This document shows, piece after piece, positions 7,353 to 60,285 of a stretch of DNA of 64,000 nucleotides; the first letter of the stretch is position 1, and every line of letters begins with the position of its first letter. The notes under the pieces were generated by a model. The model worked only from the letters and a program-made list of their open reading frames with translations. It was not told the origin of the DNA and searched no databases. Source of the stretch: Verrucomicrobiota bacterium (GTDB lineage Bacteria > Verrucomicrobiota > Verrucomicrobiia > Limisphaerales > J093); contig JAOSKK010000038.1 of the NCBI GenBank assembly GCA_027493615.1, positions 907,333-971,332 of the forward strand. The letters run 5' to 3'. The translations under genes and the position numbers were made by a program.

Positions 7353-9113
7353 CTACGTTTCGCGAGGCGCAGGGTGTGCGGGGTTGGTCAGGGTGGGCTC
7401 GGCTTCCGTGCGGGTCCAACGGTCGATCACGTCGGCCACGCTCGTGGCGCGGTCGATGCCGCCGAGCCGCTGGTCCAGGCCTGCGTGGCGGAGTCGATCG
7501 CGCACCGACGCGTGGGCCTCAACGGCCTGGAACCGGATGCCCCGAGCCGTCAGGTCGTCGGCCAGTCCGCCCAGCGCGTGGCTGCTCTGCAGGTCCACCT
7601 GCGGCGCGGCGGACAGATCGAGGACGACCAGCTTCGGGGGCGTCGCTTCCGATCGCACCCGGTCGAGGATCGTTTCGCAGACGTGATCCACGTTGAAGTA
7701 GAGCAGGCCGGTCTCGGGCCGGAAGATGTGGACGCCGGGAATGAGCTCGTTGTCCGGATGGCGTGCGCGATCCGAAAACCGGCGCGTGCCCGGGATACGT
7801 CCCAGGAAGGCGACGTGGGGACGGGCGGCGCGCCGCAGCAACTGGATGAGCGAGAGGGCCGCCCCGATCATCACGCCCCGCAGCAGGCCGGAACCCAGCA
7901 CACCAAGGAGGGCGGCCATGGCCACCGCGAATTCCGGACGGTCGCCACGCCAGAGTTGTCGGAGCACGGAGAGCTTGAACAACCCCGCCACCGCCACGAG
8001 GACGATCGCCGCCAGCACCGGCTGGGGCAGCGCGCTAAGGAGATGGGAGAAGCACAGGACGACGACGAGGATGATCCCCGCCGCGCAGGCACCGGACAAT
8101 GGCGTGTGCGCCCCACCGCCTTCATTGACGAGGGACTGCGACATGCCGCCGCTGACGGGAAAGCCGCGCCCCAGCCCGGCCGCGATATTCGCCACCGCCA
8201 GGGCGAGGAACTCCTGGTTCGCATCCAGGCGCCCGCCATGCTTGGCCGTGAACATGCGACCGATGGCCGCCGTCTCCACCGCGCCCAGCAAGAAGCAGGC
8301 GACGGCCAGCGGGAGGAGCGCATTGAGGTCCGCCCATTGGATCGCGGGTAGCCCCACGGGTGGCAGTCCCTGGGGCACTTCGCCCAGCAGCTTCACCCCA
8401 CGCGCTTCGAGGCCGAGCCAGGCGGAGGCCAGGATGCCGCTGATGACCACCACCAGCGCCACCGGTTTGTGCTTGAGATAGATCTTACCGAACACGAGGA
8501 CAGCCAGCGCGACTCCGCCGATGGTGAGCGAGGCCGGGTTGGTCTCGTTCAGGTGCTGGAGAAAGTGCCCGCTGTTCTCCCAGAAATCGCCGTGGGCTCC
8601 GTGAAAGCCGAACAGCTTCGGCAGTTGTGTGCTCGCCAGAAACAGGGCCACCCCGCACTTGAAACCGGTCATCACGCTTTCCGAGATGAAGTTCACGATG
8701 ACCCCCGCCTTCACCAGCCAGGCGAGGAAGGCCAGCAGCGCGACCAGCAGCGCCGTGGCCGCCGCCAGCGCGCCGAACCGGGTCGTGTCACCTCCGGCAA
8801 TCTCCCCGAGCGACGCCCCGATCAGGAGCGAGATGGCGGAGGTGACCGTGACCGAGGTGTGCCGGGAACTGCAGAACAGCCAGAAGACCAGGCCGCCGAA
8901 CAGGCAGGCGTACAGGCCCGCTTGCGGCGGCAGATTGGCCAGCGAGGCATCGCCCAGGGCGGCGGGCAAGAGGTAGGCGGCGAGGGTGATGCTGGCGAGC
9001 ACATCGCCGCGCAGCCAGCCCAGCTGGTAGGACCGGAGCCATGCCAGCGCCGGGATCCAGCGCGCCCAACCGGTGGCGGACGGGAGAGCGGTGGGGTGAC
9101 TCATGTCAAGCAT
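7353..9113 (-). CDS. SulP-family anion transporter with C-terminal STAS domain
   Basis: Intact 586-aa ORF. It has about 11 hydrophobic segments, the SulP-type N-terminus (WLRGDVLASITLAAYLLPAALGDASLANLPPQAGLY) and a STAS-like tail (VVLDLSAAPQVDLQSSHALGGLADDL). Confidence 0.95.
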   Translation of the reverse strand: MLDMSHPTALPSATGWARWIPALAWLRSYQLGWLRGDVLASITLAAYLLPAALGDASLANLPPQAGLYACLFGGLVFWLFCSSRHTSVTVTSAISLLIGASLGEIAGGDTTRFGALAAATALLVALLAFLAWLVKAGVIVNFISESVMTGFKCGVALFLASTQLPKLFGFHGAHGDFWENSGHFLQHLNETNPASLTIGGVALAVLVFGKIYLKHKPVALVVVISGILASAWLGLEARGVKLLGEVPQGLPPVGLPAIQWADLNALLPLAVACFLLGAVETAAIGRMFTAKHGGRLDANQEFLALAVANIAAGLGRGFPVSGGMSQSLVNEGGGAHTPLSGACAAGIILVVVLCFSHLLSALPQPVLAAIVLVAVAGLFKLSVLRQLWRGDRPEFAVAMAALLGVLGSGLLRGVMIGAALSLIQLLRRAARPHVAFLGRIPGTRRFSDRARHPDNELIPGVHIFRPETGLLYFNVDHVCETILDRVRSEATPPKLVVLDLSAAPQVDLQSSHALGGLADDLTARGIRFQAVEAHASVRDRLRHAGLDQRLGGIDRATSVADVIDRWTRTEAEPTLTNPAHPAPRET

Positions 9114-48610: not shown

Positions 48611-48708
48611 TGTAGGCGCCGACGTGAGGAGGCATGGTGGTAGGCGCCGACGTGAGGAGGCGAGGGGGCCAGGGGGTAATACCCTCCGCCTCCTCACGTC
48701 GGCGCCTA
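48611..48708. repeat. REP-like element: two direct copies and one inverted copy of a 22-nt motif GTAGGCGCCGACGTGAGGAGGC
   Basis: Copies lie at 48611-48632 and 48639-48660 (direct) and at 48687-48708 (reverse complement). The last two can form a hairpin of at least 22 bp. The element is intergenic, between the divergent genes 47995..48502 (-) and 48821..50194 (+). Confidence 0.85.
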
Positions 48709-48820
48709 CGGCGGTGTGGACCTCCCGCCAGCGTGTGGAGGTGTGGAGAAGGCGTGCGGTTCGGGCTCGCCAAGTTCGGGAGGCTGTCTACAGTGCGCCC
48801 CGTCCACCATTCAACGAGTC

Positions 48821-50194
48821 ATGAAGAACACTGAACCCACTCCTGTTTCTGTCTTGCACGAAGGCACCACGCGTCGCGAGTTCCTGGCCCGCACCGGGCA
48901 AGCGGCGGCGGTTTCGGCCCTGGCGGGTGTGAGCCTGCCGTGGGTGCACGCGGCCGAGGACAACACCATCCGGCTGGCACTGATCGGCTGCGGCGGCCGG
49001 GGAACCGGCGCGGCGGCGAACGCGCTGGAGGCGCCGGGGGTCCGACCAAGCTGGTGGCCATGGCGGACTTGTTCGAAGACCGGCTGAACCGTTCCTACCA
49101 GAATCTACGCGAGAAGTACGGCGAACGCGTCGAGGCACCGGCGGACCGCCGGTTTGTGGGGTTCGACGCTTACCGGAAGGCAATCGACTGCCTGCGCCCG
49201 GGTGACGTGGCGCTCTGCACCACGCACGCGGCGTTTCGGCCGCGGCACGTCGAGTATGCCATCGAGAAAGGCGTGCACGTGTTCATGGAGAAGACGTTTG
49301 CGCCCGACCCGGGCGGGATCAAACGGATCCTGCGGGCGGGGGAAGCGGCGGAGAAGAAGGGGCTCAAGATCGGCGCGGGGGTGATGTGCCGTCACTCGAC
49401 CGCGCGGCAGGCATTGATCCAGCAGATCCGGGACGGGGCGATGGGCGACATCCAGTTGATCCGGGCGTACCGGATGGATTCCGGCTATCGGATGGGGCGG
49501 CTCAACCCGCAGCCGAGCGAGCTGCTCGCCCAGATCCGTATCCCGTATCAGTTTTTCTGGGCCTCCTCCGGCATCTTCATCGAGCTGATGATTCACCAGA
49601 TCGACGAGTGTTGCTGGATTAAGGACGGCTGGCCGGTCAGCGCCCACGGCGTGGGCGGTCGCGGCCCGGACAGCACGGACTGCGCCCAGAACTTCGACAC
49701 GTACTCGATCGAATACACGTTTGCGGACGGCACCAAGGCGCTGGTCACCGGCCGGTACATTCCGAAATGCCACAACGATTTCGCGACCTTCGTGCACGGG
49801 ACCAAGTGTGCCGCCCAGTTCTCCGGGGACATCCATGCTCCGACGGTGCAACGCTACAAGGACCAGCGGATCGAGCGGTCGAACATCGCGTGGCGGCCCG
49901 AGCGGGAGACGGTCGATCCGTGGCAGGCCGAGTGGAACGTGCTGCTGGATGCCATCCGGAACAACAAACCCCACAACGAAGCCAAGCGGGCGGCCTACTC
50001 CGAATCTGGCAGCGATCATGGGGCGGGCCGCGGTGCACTCGGGTCAGATCATCACCTGGGAAGAGGCGGTGGCCTCCGACTTCATGTTTTGTCCGGACGT
50101 GGACCGGCTGAACGAATCCAGCCCCGCACCCGTGACCGCCGATGCCAACGGCCGTTACCCGGCGCCGGTGCCGGGGGTGTGGCGGGAGATCTGA
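48821..50194 (+). CDS. Gfo/Idh/MocA-family oxidoreductase with Tat signal; frame broken about twice
   Basis: The start is MKNTEPTPVSVLHEGTTRREFLARTGQAAAVSALAG, then IRLALIGCGGRGTGAA (Rossmann motif). It continues in ORF 48940..50271 (VAMADLFEDRLN...EKGVHVFMEKTFA) and in the tail frame of ORF 49721..50194 (GRAAVHSGQIITWEEA...). Confidence 0.85.
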
Positions 50195-50267
50195 GGCGGC
50201 GGCGAGTCACCGTCACCTCCCCGCCACGGCGCTGGCGACGGGAAGGGTACGCTGCTAAGCTGGGCCG

Positions 50268-50531
50268 GTGAAGGCGAAGTCCAGGAACCAGCCGCGGGCA
50301 CCCGCGGGAACCACACCGGTTCCCGCGTGCCTGCGGGCGTTCGCCTGGAATCTCGGGGACCGGGTGGGCGAGACGGGCCGCCGCCAGATCGCCCTGAACG
50401 TGATCGAGCGGGGCCGCGCCTGGCACTGGAGCCGGCTGCCTAAGGGCTGGTTTGACCTCGAGTACTGCCTTCGCCACGGGCAACGCCGCACGCGCGCCGC
50501 GCTGAGAAGTCTATTCGGAGCGGAGCCATGA
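50268..50531 (+). CDS. Hypothetical protein, positional candidate for the cognate antitoxin/partner of the downstream nucleotidyltransferase
   Basis: 87-aa ORF whose stop overlaps the next ATG (ATGA at 50528-50531). No family recognised. Confidence 0.4.
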   Translation: MKAKSRNQPRAPAGTTPVPACLRAFAWNLGDRVGETGRRQIALNVIERGRAWHWSRLPKGWFDLEYCLRHGQRRTRAALRSLFGAEP

Positions 50532-51281
50532 AGCGGCCGGCGGACCTTGAGGCGATCGTGCGGGTTTTTGCCGAGGTGCCCGCGCTGGCTGCGGCCGGCG
50601 CGCTGGGGAGCCACGGCGTTGCATCATGAACACCTCGAAAACCAGCTCGGCCGATTCAGCTTCGACATTGACCTTCAAACCAGGACTGAGGAGCTCGAAA
50701 CGGTGCACCGCCGTCTCGAAGCGGCGTCCCCCAAGCTGCGCCTCCTCAGTCGACTCAACGAGGGCCTCTACCAGTACGAAGCCCGGGCGGGTCGACGAGT
50801 TGTCCGGGTGGAACTCGCAAGGCCCTACCTCCGCCACCGCCGCCGCTACGAGCCCAGCCGCCACGTGCCGGGGCTGGAAGTGGTCGCGCTGGCCGACCTG
50901 CTGTTTGCCAAGGTGTCGGCATTTTCGACGCGAGGCTTTCCCCGCGATTTTATTGATCTTTTTGCGGCCAGCACGGAGAAGCGAATCGACTGGGACAAAC
51001 TCCTTGCCGCCGCGGCACGTGCCGAGGACAACGACTACAATCCGGCGGAGTTCGCGACGCGGATCAGTGAACAGCTCAGGGCAATTCGCGATGGCGGCTT
51101 CTTCGAGGATCTGCCGGTGCGGCGATCGCCTTCGGTGGGGGAACTCGAGGCCTTCGCGGGGCAGCTCGCCAGGGCCAACGGGCGCGTGGCCGAAGCGCTG
51201 TTGGGACAGAGCCACCTCGCGCCACCGGCTTCGTGGAGCGTGCGCAGACCCCGAGCGACCGCAGATGGGGAAAGAGAGTGA
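50528..51281 (+). CDS. Nucleotidyltransferase AbiEii/AbiGii toxin family (DUF1814-like) protein; one frame break near 50600
   Basis: The ATG at 50528 gives MKRPADLEAIVRVFAEVPALAAAGALGS. After a shift the sequence reads GATALHHEHLENQLGRFSFDIDLQT (GGTAL ... R-x-S-x-DID pattern). Later comes DLLFAKVSAFSTRGFPRDFIDLF (RD-x-x-D pattern). The 3' end runs into the first unit of the tandem array. Confidence 0.6.
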
Positions 51282-52700
51282 GCTGTTCCGGGGGCGGGTT
51301 CGAGGGAGATTCCGTTGGCGGGGGCTCTGAATCGGCGGGAGGAGGATTCGGGGAGTGGTCCCGCAGATTCAAAGCGACCGCAGATTGGGCAGGATGGTGG
51401 ACTGTTCCGGGGACGGGTTCGAGGGAGGTTCCATCGGCGGGGGCTCTGAATCGGCGGGGTGAAGGTACGGGGAATGGCCCCGCAGATTCAAAGCGACCGC
51501 AGATCGAGCAGGATGGTGGACTGTTCCGGGGACGGGTTCGAGGGAGATTCCATCGGCGGGGGCTCTGAATCGGTGGGAGGAAGATTCGGGGAGTGGCCCC
51601 GCAGATTCAAAGCGACCGCAGATCGAGCAGGGTGGTGGACTGTTCCGGGGACGGGTTCGGGGGAGATTCCATCGGCGGGGGCTCTGAATCGGCGGGGTGA
51701 AGGTACGGGGAATGGCCCCGCAGATTCAAAGCGACCGCAGATCGAGCAGGATGGTGGACTGTTCCGGGGACGGGTTCGAGGGAGATTCCATCGGCGGGGG
51801 CTCTGAATCGGTGGGAGGAAGATTCGGGGAGTGGCCCCGCAGATTCAAAGCGACCGCAGATCGAGCAGGGTGGTGGACTGTTCCGGGGACGGGTTCGGGG
51901 AGATTCCATCGGCGGGGGCTCTGAATCGGCGGGGTGAAGGTACGGGGAATGGCCCCGCAGATTCAAAGCGACCGCAGATCGAGCAGGATGGTGGACTGTT
52001 CCGGGGACGGGTTCGGGGGAGATTCCGTTGGCGGGGGCTGTGAATCGGTGGGAGGAAGATTCGGGGAGTGGTCCCGCAGATTCAAAGCGACCGCAGATTG
52101 GGCAGGAGGGTGGACTGTTCCGGGGACGGGTTCGAGGGAGATTCCGTTGGCGGGGGCTCTGAATCGGTGGGATGAAAGGTCCGGGGAATGGCCCCGCAGA
52201 TTCAAAGCGACCGCAGATGCGGCGAGAGGGTGGACTGTTCCGGGGACGGGTTCGAGTCAGGTTCCATCGGCGGGGGCTCTGAATCGGCGGGAGGAGAATT
52301 CGGGGAGTGGCCCCGCAGATTCAAAGCGACCGCAGATTGGGCAGGAGGGTGGGCTGTTACGGGGACGGGTTCGAGGGAGATTCCATCGGCGGGGGCTCTG
52401 AATCGGTGGGAGGAGGATTCGGGGAGTGGCACCGCAGATTCAAAGCGACCGCAGATTGGGGAGGAGAGTGGACTGTTCCGGGGACGGGTTCGAGGGAGGT
52501 TCCATCGGCGGGGGCTCTGAATCGGTGGGGAGGAGGATTCGGGGAGTGGCCCCGCAGATTCAAAGCGACCGCAGATTGGGCAGGAGGGTGGACTGTTCCG
52601 GGGACGGGCCCGAGGGAGATTCCATCGGCGGGGGCTCTGAATCGGTGGGAGGAAGATTCGGGGAGTGGCCCCCGCAGATTCAAAGCGACCGCAGATGGGT
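51243..52700. repeat. Tandem array, about 12.2 copies of a 118-120-bp unit with two alternating subtypes
   Basis: The unit-start motif cgcagattcaaagcgaccgcagat occurs at 51362, 51481, 51600, 51719, 51838, 51956, 52075, 52195, 52314, 52433, 52553 and 52673. A degenerate first unit starts at 51243. Unit tails alternate between ggcggggtgaaggtacggggaatggcc and ggtgggaggaagattcggggagtggcc in the central copies. Confidence 0.95.
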
Positions 52701-52835: not shown

Positions 52836-54104
52836 ATGAAACCTCTTACCTGCTTCGGGTCCGTCCTCTTGCTCGGCTGTCTCGCGCCGGCCCTCGCCCA
52901 ACCATGGAACGTCCGCGATTTCGGCGCGGTGGGCGACGGGACGACGGATGACACGGCCGCGTTCCAGAAGGCCCTGGACGCGGCGGCGGCGGCGGGCGGG
53001 GGCACCGTGCTGGCGCCGCGGGGCAACTACCTCTTCGCCGGTTCGCTTAACGTCCCGCCCGCCGTCACCCTGCGCGGCGTGTGGGAGTCGGTGCCGGCGC
53101 ACAACGGGATCCGGGACGCCGGCTTGCCGAAACCGACGGATGACGGCACGACGTTCCTGGTGACCGGCGGGGCCGGCAGCGAGGAAGGCCCGCCGTTTCT
53201 CACGCTCACCCACAACAGCACGCTCAAGGGCGTGGTGCTGTACTATCCGAACCAAAAGGTGGACGACGTGCCCGAGGCCTATCCCTGGGCCATCGCCATG
53301 CGGGGCAAGAACCCCGCCGTGCTCGCCGTCGAGCTCCTCAACCCCTACAACGGCATCAACACCACCGGGAGCGAACGGCACCTGATCCGCGACGTGCACG
53401 GCCAACCGCTGCGCCGCGGGGTGTATGTGGATCAGATCTACGACATCGGCCGGATCGAGAACGTCCATTTCAACCCGTGGTGGAGCATGAAGCCCAAGCT
53501 GTTCCAATGGCAGATGGCCAACGGCGAGGCCTTCATCTTCGGGCGCACCGACTGGCAGTACGTGTTCAACACCTTCTGCTTCGGGTACAACGTGGGGTAC
53601 AAATTCATCAAGACCCGCGCGCGGGCTTCTGCAACGGCAATTTCCCTCGGGCTCGGCGCGGATGACTGCCAGACGGCGCTGGTCGTCGAAGACTCGGCCC
53701 CCTACGGGCTCCTGATCACCAACGGCGAGTTTGTCAGCTTCCACGGTCCGGACCCGACGATGATCGACGTGCGCGCCTCGAACACCGGCAGCGTGCGGTT
53801 TGTGAACTGCGCCTTCTGGGGTCCGTGCCACCAAATCGCGAAGGTGGCGGGCCGGGGGACGGTGGGATTCAGCGATTGCACGTTTGTGCAATGGGACGCG
53901 AAGAAGGAAGGGCGGCACGCGATCCAGGCCAGCGGCGGGACGGTCCTGGTACGCGGCTGCGAGTTCCGCGAGGCCAAGGCGCACATCGAACTGGGGGAAG
54001 GCGTGCGGCGGGCGGTGATCACCGACAACATCTTCACGGGCCCGGCGCGGGTGACCAACCGGAGCGAGGGCCGGATCCAGGTGGCGAACAACGTGGGCGA
54101 GTAA
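52836..54104 (+). CDS. Secreted right-handed beta-helix protein (pectate-lyase-superfamily / GH28-GH55-related)
   Basis: ATG at 52836, then a signal peptide. WNVRDFGAVGDGTTDDTAAFQKALDAAAAAGGGTVLAPRGNY is the canonical Pectate_lyase_3-type N-terminus. Confidence 0.8.
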   Translation: MKPLTCFGSVLLLGCLAPALAQPWNVRDFGAVGDGTTDDTAAFQKALDAAAAAGGGTVLAPRGNYLFAGSLNVPPAVTLRGVWESVPAHNGIRDAGLPKPTDDGTTFLVTGGAGSEEGPPFLTLTHNSTLKGVVLYYPNQKVDDVPEAYPWAIAMRGKNPAVLAVELLNPYNGINTTGSERHLIRDVHGQPLRRGVYVDQIYDIGRIENVHFNPWWSMKPKLFQWQMANGEAFIFGRTDWQYVFNTFCFGYNVGYKFIKTRARASATAISLGLGADDCQTALVVEDSAPYGLLITNGEFVSFHGPDPTMIDVRASNTGSVRFVNCAFWGPCHQIAKVAGRGTVGFSDCTFVQWDAKKEGRHAIQASGGTVLVRGCEFREAKAHIELGEGVRRAVITDNIFTGPARVTNRSEGRIQVANNVGE

Positions 54105-54110
54105 AGCGAA

Positions 54111-54143
54111 GCGGCCACCGACGCGAAACGCGCCGGTGGCCGC
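54111..54143. terminator. Hairpin between convergent genes (bidirectional terminator candidate)
   Basis: Left arm gcggccaccg (54111-54120), 13-nt loop, right arm cggtggccgc (54134-54143). It lies between the stop at 54104 (+) and the hppA 3' end. Confidence 0.5.
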
Positions 54144-54191
54144 GGAGTCCCACCGCCGGCCCGGGGGAGGCGCAGCGGTAAGGGTCGGGCG

Positions 54192-56795
<2,604 letters not shown>

Positions 56796-57737: not shown

Positions 57738-57759
57738 GCAGGCGCCGACGTGAGGAGGC
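57738..57759. repeat. Solitary copy of the 22-nt REP-like motif
   Basis: gcaggcgccgacgtgaggaggc differs from the motif at 48611 by 1 nt. It lies in the spacer between the crp-like start and the 3' end of the hydrolase-NamZ gene. Confidence 0.6.
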
Positions 57760-60216: not shown

Positions 60217-60285
60217 GTAGGCGCCGACGTCAGGAGGCGTTGGGGTCAGAGACAACGCCCTCTGCCTCCTCACGTCGGCGCCTGC
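60217..60285. repeat. REP-like palindrome built from the same 22-nt motif
   Basis: gtaggcgccgacgtcaggaggc (60217-60238) and gcctcctcacgtcggcgcctgc (60264-60285) form an inverted pair. The 25-nt spacer itself contains ggcgttg...caacgcc. It lies in the divergent spacer between 57792..60167 (-) and 60394..61770 (+). Confidence 0.85.

What the first reader, a model, noticed from the sequence alone, without database searches (positions are those of the whole stretch)
51243..52700. About 12 tandem copies of a 119-bp unit with alternating subtypes, apparently non-coding
Unit starts are spaced 118-120 bp apart (listed in the feature entry). In the central copies, two tail variants alternate, giving a higher-order period of about 238 bp. 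The outer copies are more diverged. The period is not a multiple of 3. Each unit also carries a stop in one frame on each strand: TGA in gctctgaatc on plus, and TGA in gctttgaatc on minus. No long ORF can therefore span the array. The track ORFs here of up to 214 aa are frame-rotating artefacts.

I see only weak intra-unit pairing, namely the gattc/gaatc 5-mers. The array starts inside the 3' end of the AbiEii-like gene and ends about 135 nt before the beta-helix hydrolase gene. Tandem arrays of this unit size are rare in bacterial chromosomes. Possible roles are a protein-binding array, a phase or copy-number-variable spacer, a processed RNA array, or a satellite derived from a MITE-like element.
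Basis: seen in the sequence. Interest (0 to 1): 0.65.

Follow-up and report, generated by a model that had tools for sequence, protein, structure and literature searches.

The report
Tandemly amplified palindromic repeat element
The 1.4-kb array is real and non-coding: it is twelve head-to-tail copies of a small inverted-repeat element from a repeat family scattered through Verrucomicrobiota genomes, much like the REP/BIME clusters of proteobacteria, so it is a fairly ordinary kind of bacterial "satellite" from a family that appears not to have been described.

Summary
Window 51254-52696 contains 12.1 copies of a 119-bp unit at 91% identity. The central copies alternate in a 238-bp pattern, every frame has stops, and no frame shows a coding GC3 signature.

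Each unit holds two inverted, diverged copies of a 26-27-nt module: A, CCCGCAGATTCAAAGCGACCGCAGAT, and B, CCCRCCGATTCAGAGCCCCCGCCGAT on the other strand. They match at 18-21 of 26 positions and lie 46-47 nt apart, with 20 nt from B to the next A.

The module is dispersed. It occurs in three Verrucomicrobiota MAGs and in more than 120 metagenome contigs. It appears as single copies, as inverted pairs that form hairpins, in-frame inside a kinase gene, and in tandem arrays with periods of 125-318 bp. One contig (L123) carries a single copy of the whole window unit just after a stop codon. At one orthologous locus, one genome has one hairpin where another has three.

I read the array as a local amplification of a MITE/REPIN-like element. 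The closest known cases are REP/BIME clusters. The module fails REP-defining tests: it has no GTAG or CGTC tag and is not itself a stem-loop. No transposase is linked to it. Any function is inferred, not shown. Interest is modest.

The parts
51254..52696 (.). Whole tandem array: 12.1 copies of a 119-bp unit. The G-rich strand is +.
   Evidence: TRF; unit list; composition.
51241..51266 (+). Degenerate leading A module TGCGCAGACCCCGAGCGACCGCAGAT (20/26 to the A consensus). It marks the left edge and lies inside the 3' end of ORF 50547-51281.
51360..51385 (+). A module 1 (CCCGCAGATTCAAAGCGACCGCAGAT, which contains the direct repeat CCGCAGAT-N9-CCGCAGAT).
51479..51504 (+). A module 2
51598..51623 (+). 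A module 3
51717..51742 (+). A module 4
51836..51861 (+). A module 5
51954..51979 (+). A module 6
52073..52098 (+). A module 7
52193..52218 (+). A module 8
52312..52337 (+). A module 9
52431..52456 (+). A module 10 (1 mismatch)
52551..52576 (+). A module 11
52671..52696 (+). A module 12, the right edge of the array
51314..51339 (-). B module 1 (the - strand reads CCCGCCGATTCAGAGCCCCCGCCAAC), the inverted, diverged partner of the preceding A module
51433..51458 (-). B module 2 (CCCGCCGATTCAGAGCCCCCGCCGAT). 21/26 Watson-Crick with A at 51360, 47 nt apart.
51552..51577 (-). B module 3 (CCCACCGAT... variant)
51671..51696 (-). B module 4
51790..51815 (-). B module 5
51908..51933 (-). B module 6
52027..52052 (-). 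B module 7
52146..52171 (-). B module 8
52266..52291 (-). B module 9
52385..52410 (-). B module 10
52504..52529 (-). B module 11
52624..52649 (-). B module 12
51492..51966 (.). Most recent duplication: units 3-4 and 5-6 form a 238-bp dimer repeated twice (u3=u5; u4 and u6 differ by one indel).
50547..51281 (+). Upstream ORF with weak AbiEii-like similarity. It is probably frameshifted near 50600. Its last 9 codons lie in unit 1.
52836..54104 (+). Downstream gene for a pectate-lyase-like beta-helix protein, starting 139 nt after the array. It is context, not part of the element.

Best explanation
The array is a non-coding satellite. It was made by local tandem amplification of one small inverted-repeat element that belongs to a dispersed repeat family of Pedosphaerales/Limisphaerales-type Verrucomicrobiota.

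The family's building block is a 26-28-nt module, yyCCCGCAGATTCARRGCGACCRCAGAT, which itself contains the direct repeat CCGCAGAT-N9-CCGCAGAT. Two modules in inverted orientation form a MITE/REPIN-like element of about 60-130 bp.

In the window, one such element consists of an A module, a 46-47-nt interior and a diverged B module. It sat just downstream of the AbiEii-like ORF. Together with a 20-nt linker it was then multiplied to 12 copies by replication slippage or unequal recombination. The latest step was the duplication of a 238-bp dimer.

Shown: the anatomy, the family membership, the single-copy homologue elsewhere, and growth of arrays from single hairpins at an orthologous locus. Inferred: the amplification mechanism, and the idea that the array has no dedicated function beyond what REP/BIME-type clusters do. 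If it is transcribed from the upstream gene, each unit can fold into an imperfect hairpin of about 25 bp. That could impede exonucleases or polymerase between the two genes.
For: 1. Unit anatomy. There are 13 A modules and 12 inverted B modules. A and B match at 18-21 of 26 positions, are spaced 46-47 nt apart, and 20 nt separate B from the next A.
2. Family. The junction 20-mer is found in three Verrucomicrobiota MAGs. The conserved positions extend beyond the searched core.
3. Arrangements. Modules occur as singles, as head-to-head hairpins, as tail-to-tail pairs and as tandem arrays with periods of 125, 137, 151, 176, 233 and 318 bp.
4. L123 carries one copy of the whole window unit, including the interior (nhmmer E 3e-17). 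It starts 9 nt after a stop codon.
5. L001 and L043 share an orthologous gene. It is flanked by one hairpin on each side in L043 and by three tandem hairpins on each side in L001.
6. In L004 and L006 the element lies in-frame inside the activation loop of a Ser/Thr kinase. In a canonical kinase this segment is short, so I take the element to be an insertion.
7. Modules sit mostly outside long open frames. They avoid divergent intergenic regions: 3 divergent, 16 convergent and 27 tandem by my crude gene calls.
8. The 150 genes next to modules are unrelated housekeeping genes, with no family found more than twice.
9. The array is non-coding and has no Rfam family, tRNA or promoter signal.
10. 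Published precedent exists. REPIN doublets are reiterated in tandem together with their flanks, and SBW25 has 12-copy arrays of two alternating REP types (PMC3116915; PMC3733652).
Against: 1. No autonomous element or transposase with these ends was found, no target-site duplication exceeds chance, and no empty-site pair was found. Mobility is therefore inferred only from the dispersed distribution and the intragenic copy.
2. In the 62.5 kb of the window outside the array there is no other copy, so abundance in this particular genome is unknown.
3. About half of full modules have no inverted partner within 160 nt (62 of 111). Variant modules change both half-sites together. This fits recognition by a sequence-specific protein at least as well as selfish spread.
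4. The invariance of the A and B modules across the 12 units, while the interior and linker vary, could reflect selection rather than recent origin.
5. The copy number rests on a single assembly that shows signs of indel errors.
Confidence: 0.7

Rival explanations
1. Protein-binding array. The A and B modules are recognition sites for a sequence-specific DNA-binding protein such as a transposase-like, partition or nucleoid protein. The 12-unit array is then a high-avidity landing pad, comparable to iteron or centromere-like arrays such as the 12 x 43-bp sopC of plasmid F (from my own knowledge).
For: The module is bipartite, an 8-mer repeated at a 17-nt period. Variants change both half-sites in concert: CCACCGAT x2, CCGCCGAT x2, CCACGAAT x2. 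Single modules without a partner are as well conserved as paired ones. Arms vary independently rather than by compensation. Modules are invariant within the array while spacers vary.
Against: No candidate protein is linked. The same module occurs inside a kinase ORF and right after stop codons in unrelated contexts. Arrays at other loci have unrelated spacers and periods, as expected from accidental amplification.
Confidence: 0.15
2. RNA-level element. The array is transcribed and each unit acts as a structured RNA, either a small-RNA gene, a processing unit, or a multi-hairpin terminator, stabiliser or insulator between the two genes.
For: In L002 the same hairpin (-55 kcal/mol, z -10.8) is followed by U7 and repeated five times directly after a gene, so it looks like an intrinsic terminator. 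Window units fold into the predicted long imperfect hairpin (-44 to -54 kcal/mol on +, z down to -3.2; - strand z down to -4.6). The array lies between two co-directional genes.
Against: The window units have no U-tract, and no promoter- or terminator-like site exceeds chance. No Rfam family matches, even at E<=10. Across 36 distinct hairpins, mismatched combinations outnumber compensated ones at the variable positions, and mismatches do not favour one strand. Half of the modules are unpaired.
Confidence: 0.08
3. Assembly artefact. The copy number, or the array itself, was produced by mis-assembly of a repeat.
For: The assembly shows frameshift-like breaks in at least three neighbouring genes. 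The 118/120-bp variants lie in homopolymers. In another genome the assembler broke contigs at such an array: the end of L003 matches the start of L005.
Against: Units differ by ordered substitutions that give a nested higher-order pattern, which collapsing or expansion artefacts do not create. Comparable arrays occur in independent assemblies. The contig is 1.08 Mb long, which suggests a long-read assembly that can span 1.4 kb.
Confidence: 0.05
4. Degenerate or mis-called protein-coding repeat. The true period would be 120 bp, encoding a 40-aa repeat protein that systematic indel errors have broken.
For: Two of the three + frames are stop-free within a unit. The assembly has indel errors. The same module is translated inside a kinase in L004 and L006.
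Against: No frame has coding-type codon-position GC. The maximum GC3 is 0.73 against 0.87-0.91 in real genes, and the minimum is 0.58 against a GC2 of 0.44-0.48. Nine of the 12 units are exactly 119 bp. The G5 run is also present in L123, which comes from an independent metagenome assembly. The family is predominantly intergenic.
Confidence: 0.02

Closest known systems
REP/REPIN clusters and tandem REP arrays of Pseudomonas fluorescens SBW25 (Bertels & Rainey 2011, PMC3116915)
   Same: Both involve short dispersed extragenic repeats that occur as singlets, as inverted doublets forming hairpins, and as ordered clusters in which nearly identical doublets are repeated in tandem together with flanking sequence. 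SBW25 has arrays of 12 copies of two alternating REP types with two alternating spacings (112 and 72 bp). That parallels the 12 A/B pairs here, with spacings of 46-47 and 20 nt.
   Different: A REP is itself a short palindrome and is associated with a RAYT transposase gene flanked by REPs. The module here is not self-complementary, carries an internal direct repeat instead, and no RAYT or other transposase was found next to it. The phylum is also different.
BIMEs (bacterial interspersed mosaic elements) of E. coli and GTAG/CGTC-tagged REP super-families (Di Nocera et al. 2013, PMC3733652)
   Same: Both are mosaics of repeats in alternating orientation with conserved or variable linkers. [quoted passage not shown] Both prefer gene 3' ends, and intragenic copies are known in both.
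   Different: The module has no GTAG or CGTC tag. A separate repeat that does start with GTAG exists in the same window (48612-48709, 57738, 60217-60285) and is unrelated in sequence.
Bacterial MITEs such as Neisseria Correia elements, and Rickettsia palindromic elements (RPE) (from my own knowledge)
   Same: The shared features are terminal inverted repeats of about 26-27 bp, a total length of 60-130 bp, dispersion through the genome and hairpin-forming transcripts. As with RPEs, copies are tolerated in-frame inside a protein-coding gene: the kinase activation loop in L004 and L006.
   Different: No target-site duplication was detected and no parent IS is known. About half of the modules are solitary. 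Long tandem arrays are not typical of those families.
Intrinsic (Rho-independent) terminators
   Same: In L002 the family hairpin is followed by a U7 tract directly after a gene.
   Different: The window units have a 46-47-nt interior, 5-8 mismatches per 26-bp stem and no U tract.

Membership tests
REP / REPIN-RAYT (including BIME) | Short repeat dispersed at many extragenic sites | tested here: met
   The module is found in more than 120 metagenome contigs and 3 MAGs. It is depleted from long open frames and lies next to unrelated housekeeping genes. The per-genome copy number could not be measured, and the window holds no copy outside the array.
REP / REPIN-RAYT (including BIME) | Each REP is itself an imperfect palindrome (stem-loop) | tested here: not met
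   Single modules fold no better than shuffles (about -1.8 kcal/mol, z +0.5 to +0.75). The module contains a direct repeat, not an inverted one.
REP / REPIN-RAYT (including BIME) | GTAG or CGTC tetranucleotide tag at one end (PMC3733652) | tested here: not met
   The consensus yyCCCGCAGATTCARRGCGACCRCAGAT carries neither tag nor its complement.
REP / REPIN-RAYT (including BIME) | Inverted doublets forming hairpins are the predominant unit | tested here: inconclusive
   Of 111 full modules, 49 have an inverted partner within 160 nt and 62 have none. Diverged partners such as the window's B module can escape detection.
REP / REPIN-RAYT (including BIME) | Cognate RAYT (Y1 transposase) gene flanked by the repeats | tested here: inconclusive
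   No Y1_Tnp or other transposase family is among the 25 most frequent Pfam families in the 150 genes next to modules, and no family occurs more than twice. A single-copy RAYT elsewhere in these genomes could not be searched.
REP / REPIN-RAYT (including BIME) | Ordered tandem clusters of doublets including flanks | tested here: met
   The window array and the arrays in L001, L002, L005, L021 and L050. The L001/L043 comparison shows growth from one hairpin to three.
MITE | Terminal inverted repeats bounding a short non-coding element | tested here: met
   36 distinct head-to-head pairs have arms of about 26 nt. The window A/B pairs match at 18-21 of 26 positions.
MITE | Target-site duplication | tested here: not met
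   Direct-repeat lengths at the flanks match those of shuffled flank pairs. The element boundaries are uncertain by a few nt.
MITE | Autonomous IS with the same ends | tested here: inconclusive
   No inverted module pair encloses a transposase in the 738 kb of loci; the L098 pair encloses an ordinary secreted protein. IS databases were not available.
CRISPR array | Short repeats separated by unique spacers of similar length | tested here: not met
   The sequence between modules is itself repeated at about 91% identity. There are no unique spacers.
Integron attC array | R''/R' core sites (RYYYAAC ... GTTRRRY) at the ends of the imperfect hairpin | tested here: not met
   The hairpin ends are CCCGCAG...CTGCGGG, with no GTTRRRY core. 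The feature definition is from my own knowledge.
Intrinsic terminator | GC-rich hairpin immediately followed by a U tract | tested here: not met
   There are no terminator-like sites inside the array. The feature is met by the relatives in L002.
Any Rfam RNA family | Covariance-model match | tested here: not met
   There are no hits at the gathering threshold in the window or in 14 related loci, apart from one tRNA elsewhere. At E<=10 only three chance-level hits appear.
Protein-coding tandem repeat | Open frame with coding codon-position bias | tested here: not met
   Stops occur every 3 units or fewer, and no frame has a GC3/GC2 contrast.

The most novel reading that the evidence does not exclude
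The 26-28-nt bipartite module (CCGCAGAT-N9-CCGCAGAT) would define an undescribed REP/BIME-like repeat system of Verrucomicrobiota that works differently from RAYT-REP systems. Its modules are not palindromes. Subfamilies change both half-sites in concert. Paired arms are typically of different subtypes (A/B), with recurrent mismatches at equivalent half-site positions. On this reading an unidentified sequence-specific protein recognises the module, and arrays such as this one are its amplification hot spots or high-avidity binding platforms.
Probability: 0.25. Interest if true: 0.5.

Novelty: new member of a known kind. Interest (0 to 1): 0.3.

Why it matters
Mainly for annotation and assembly. 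The array and its relatives generate spurious ORFs, such as the 'PADSKRPQ...' and 'ICGRFESAG' peptides. They break contigs, as at the L003/L005 junction, and they can be mistaken for genes or CRISPR-like loci in Verrucomicrobiota MAGs.

Biologically, the finding extends the REP/BIME-type pattern of singlets, inverted doublets and tandem clusters to a poorly studied phylum. The module lacks the hallmarks of RAYT-associated REPs, which hints at a different recognition protein. The in-frame copy inside a kinase activation loop, and the growth from one hairpin to three at an orthologous site, give concrete material for studying how such elements spread and amplify.

Tried and rejected
1. Known RNA families: Rfam at the gathering threshold and at E<=10, plus a tRNA scan, found nothing.
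2. Literature: a search for the module sequence returned no papers.
3. Phage origin: the module is absent from viral contigs.
4. Synteny: I tried to show the array as an insertion through the conserved beta-helix gene. Its homologues (80-87% identity) have entirely different neighbours, so this was uninformative. The window's own protein could not be looked up.
5. Start-codon or leader hypothesis: the module often ends in CAGATG, but ORFs from that ATG are mostly short, so I rejected it.
6. IS-end hypothesis: the inverted pair 1.1 kb apart in L098 encloses an ordinary secreted protein.
7. Association with the GxxExxY-like nuclease gene flanked by hairpins: it is seen only in the orthologous pair L001/L043.
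8. Recurrent neighbouring protein family: there is none. One apparent cluster was produced by translating the repeat itself.
9. Target-site duplications: not above chance.
10. Compensatory covariation between arms: not supported.
11. Strand assignment from G-U versus A-C asymmetry: inconsistent between loci.
12. G-quadruplex or R-loop reading of the G-rich strand: I considered it only from the sequence. The G-runs need loops of 10-13 nt, and I did not test it.
Full report
**1. Observation**

Tandem Repeats Finder reports one array at 51254-52696 with period 119, 12.1 copies, 91% matches and no indels in the consensus alignment. It is the only substantial tandem repeat in the window. Anchoring on the invariant junction gives unit starts 119 bp apart, with one 118-bp and three 120-bp spacings. 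The junction 26-mer occurs 12 times against 0 expected.

A difference matrix shows u3 identical to u5, u4 and u6 differing by a single indel, u2 close to u4, and the outer units most diverged.

ORFs over the array are capped at about three units, because a 119-bp period rotates the frame into the TGA of GCTCTGAATC on + or GCTTTGAATC on -. As an independent check, real genes here have GC3 of 0.87-0.91 and GC2 of 0.44-0.48, whereas no frame of the array exceeds 0.73 or drops below 0.575 at any codon position. The array is non-coding even if some indels are mis-called.

That caveat matters. The length variants all lie in G or C runs. The neighbouring Gfo/Idh/MocA, AbiEii-like and H+-pyrophosphatase genes are broken into overlapping frames. 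The contig is 1.08 Mb. I infer that it is a long-read assembly with residual indel errors.

The + strand is strongly G-rich (630 G, 298 C; skew about +0.35).

**2.

Each unit contains two copies of one 26-nt module in opposite orientation.
- The A module, CCCGCAGATTCAAAGCGACCGCAGAT, spans the unit junction on the + strand. There are 12 perfect or near-perfect copies plus a degenerate one at 51241 that forms the left edge.
- The B module reads CCCRCCGATTCAGAGCCCCCGCCGAT on the - strand.
- A and B match at 18-21 of 26 Watson-Crick positions. They are separated by 46-47 nt, and 20 nt separate B from the next A.
- Each module is itself bipartite: an 8-mer (CCGCAGAT in A, CCRCCGAT in B) repeated at a 17-nt period.

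Exact-seed inverted-repeat search misses the pair because the arms are diverged. Folding recovers it as a long imperfect hairpin: -44 to -54 kcal/mol on the + strand with z of -1.0 to -3.2, and z of -1.9 to -4.6 on the - strand.

Within the array, the A and B modules and part of the interior are invariant. Substitutions concentrate just after A and in the B-to-A linker.

**3. The module is a dispersed family**

The junction 20-mer occurs in six contigs of three Verrucomicrobiota MAGs: an LBMAG Verrucomicrobiota bin, a Pedosphaera sp. and a Limisphaerales bacterium. It hits no viral contigs.

Positions outside the searched core are also conserved, which gives the consensus yyCCCGCAGATTCARRGCGACCRCAGAT(G).

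A profile scan of the 738 kb of loci shows four arrangements:
- single modules (62 of 111 full modules have no inverted partner within 160 nt);
- head-to-head pairs with gaps of 2-65 nt;
- tail-to-tail pairs;
- tandem arrays.

The arrays have unrelated spacers and different periods: about 125 and 137 bp in L001, 151 bp in L002, 233 bp in L005, 318 bp in L021 and 176 bp in L050.

Modules are depleted from long open frames. The median spanning open frame is 538 nt, against 1116 nt at random positions. With a crude GC3-based gene call, they lie in 16 convergent, 27 tandem and only 3 divergent intergenic regions. This is the pattern of elements that sit at gene 3' ends and avoid promoters.

The 150 genes nearest to modules belong to 148 different Pfam families, none seen more than twice. 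They include RecA, PhoH and DHDPS, and there is no transposase among the most frequent families.

**4. Direct links to the window array**

L123 (a metagenome contig) carries a single copy of the whole window unit: A module, homologous interior and B module (nhmmer E 3e-17). It starts 9 nt after a stop codon. The unit therefore exists elsewhere as a solitary element at a gene end.

L001 and L043 share an orthologous gene (73% amino-acid identity). It is flanked on each side by one hairpin in L043 and by three tandem hairpins in L001. Arrays do grow from resident single elements.

In L004 and L006 the element lies in-frame between the DFG and APE motifs of a Ser/Thr kinase: DFGIAKMLGDG-PADSKRPQMGGEEIGGRLESAG-ISSP...GTPQYMAPE. 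This segment is much shorter in canonical kinases (my own knowledge; compare the L003 kinase). I take it as an insertion tolerated in a loop, as with Rickettsia palindromic elements.

**5. How it most likely works**

The evidence favours a selfish or neutral origin. One MITE/REPIN-like element sat downstream of the AbiEii-like ORF. It was amplified by slippage or unequal recombination, most recently as a dimer.

What recognises or moves the module is unknown.
- Against an RNA-helix constraint: across 36 distinct hairpins, the variable positions show more mismatched than compensated combinations (for example 9-12 mismatched against 6 doubly changed at positions 13-14). Mismatches at the third base of each half-site are the rule (26 of 36 at position 21). 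They do not consistently favour one strand.
- For sequence-specific recognition: solitary modules are conserved, and subfamilies change both half-sites in concert.

For this reason I keep a protein-binding reading as the main rival.

At the RNA level the family hairpin can act as a terminator. In L002 it has -55 kcal/mol, z -10.8 and a U7 tract, and it is repeated five times right after a gene. The window units lack a U tract, and no promoter- or terminator-like signal exceeds chance. Any effect on the flanking genes is inference.

**6. Comparison with known systems**

The closest described kind is the REP/REPIN/BIME world.
[quoted passage not shown] They also describe arrays of 12 copies of two alternating REP types at 112/72-bp spacings (PMC3116915).

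The window array works like these. It is not a member of the REP family as defined. The module is not a stem-loop, has no GTAG or CGTC tag, and no RAYT was found (not exhaustive).

As a MITE it has inverted terminal modules, but no detectable target-site duplication and no known parent IS. CRISPR, attC, Rfam families and coding repeats are excluded by tests listed in the membership table.

No paper in the searchable library contains the module sequence. Searches for repeat elements in Verrucomicrobia returned only the general REP surveys.

**7. Verdict**

The feature is real and correctly described. It is a new member of a known kind, a tandem cluster of a dispersed inverted-repeat element, from a family that appears not to have been described.

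Interest is modest (0.3). The more novel possibility is that the bipartite module defines a mechanistically distinct repeat system with its own recognition protein. I rate it at about 0.25 probability.

Noticed in passing
window 48612-48709; 57738-57759; 60217-60285: A second, unrelated dispersed repeat: the GTAG-tagged 22-mer GTAGGCGCCGACGTGAGGAGGC. There are six copies with at most 1 mismatch at three sites. The first site has two direct copies plus one inverted copy, forming a 28-bp hairpin upstream of the Gfo/Idh/MocA gene. It looks like a classical GTAG-REP family and is absent from all fetched loci.
   Followed up: partly
window 48716-50271; about 50529-50640; 54034-56795: Frameshift-like breaks in three genes near the array. 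The Gfo/Idh/MocA oxidoreductase is split over three frames, the N-terminus of the AbiEii-like ORF is in another frame, and the H+-pyrophosphatase is split into 626-aa and 294-aa ORFs. These are either pseudogenes or, more likely, residual indel errors of a long-read assembly.
   Followed up: partly
L006 4900-4973 and L004 4712-4800: The palindromic element lies in-frame inside the activation loop of a Ser/Thr protein kinase (between DFG and APE). It adds about 25 residues (PADSKRPQMG...IGGRLESAG) and is present in two genera, so the insertion is old and tolerated.
   Followed up: partly
L001 4014-4340 and 5185-5528, compared with L043 7812-7900 and 6929-7013: An orthologous PD-(D/E)XK (GxxExxY-like) gene is flanked by one hairpin on each side in one genome and by three tandem hairpins on each side in the other. 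The two L001 arrays share a similar 45-55-nt linker.
   Followed up: yes
L002 7123-7807: Five tandem 151-bp units directly after a stop codon. Each ends in a near-perfect 27-bp hairpin plus U7 (-55 kcal/mol), giving an array of terminator-like structures.
   Followed up: partly
L080 3300-3660 (also L010, L030, L091, L096, L106, L115, L118, L122): A conserved composite sits in nine different contexts: a tail-to-tail module pair followed by AGCAACCTGAACGCAGATTTCGTGAACCATGCAAC..GGTTCGAC. In L080 it is followed by a region of about 250 nt with long-range complementarity (CCAATGGCGTGGACTTAAG ... CTTAAGTCCACGCCATTGG). No Rfam family matches.
   Followed up: partly
L003 end (7581-7614) and L005 start (1-150): Two contigs of the same MAG share the identical flank and module, so the assembler broke the contig at the 233-bp array.
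   Followed up: no
L098 3936-4075 and 5050-5130; L026, L027, L041, L093, L100, L121 flanks: Other short repeated modules often accompany the CCGCAGAT module in soil contigs. Examples are GGGCTCGGCGGGAGCCTCGCCCCACC-type hairpins and TTTCCCGATTTCGCGCTTTTCGCTTTG-type stretches. This suggests mosaic intergenic repeats.
   Followed up: no
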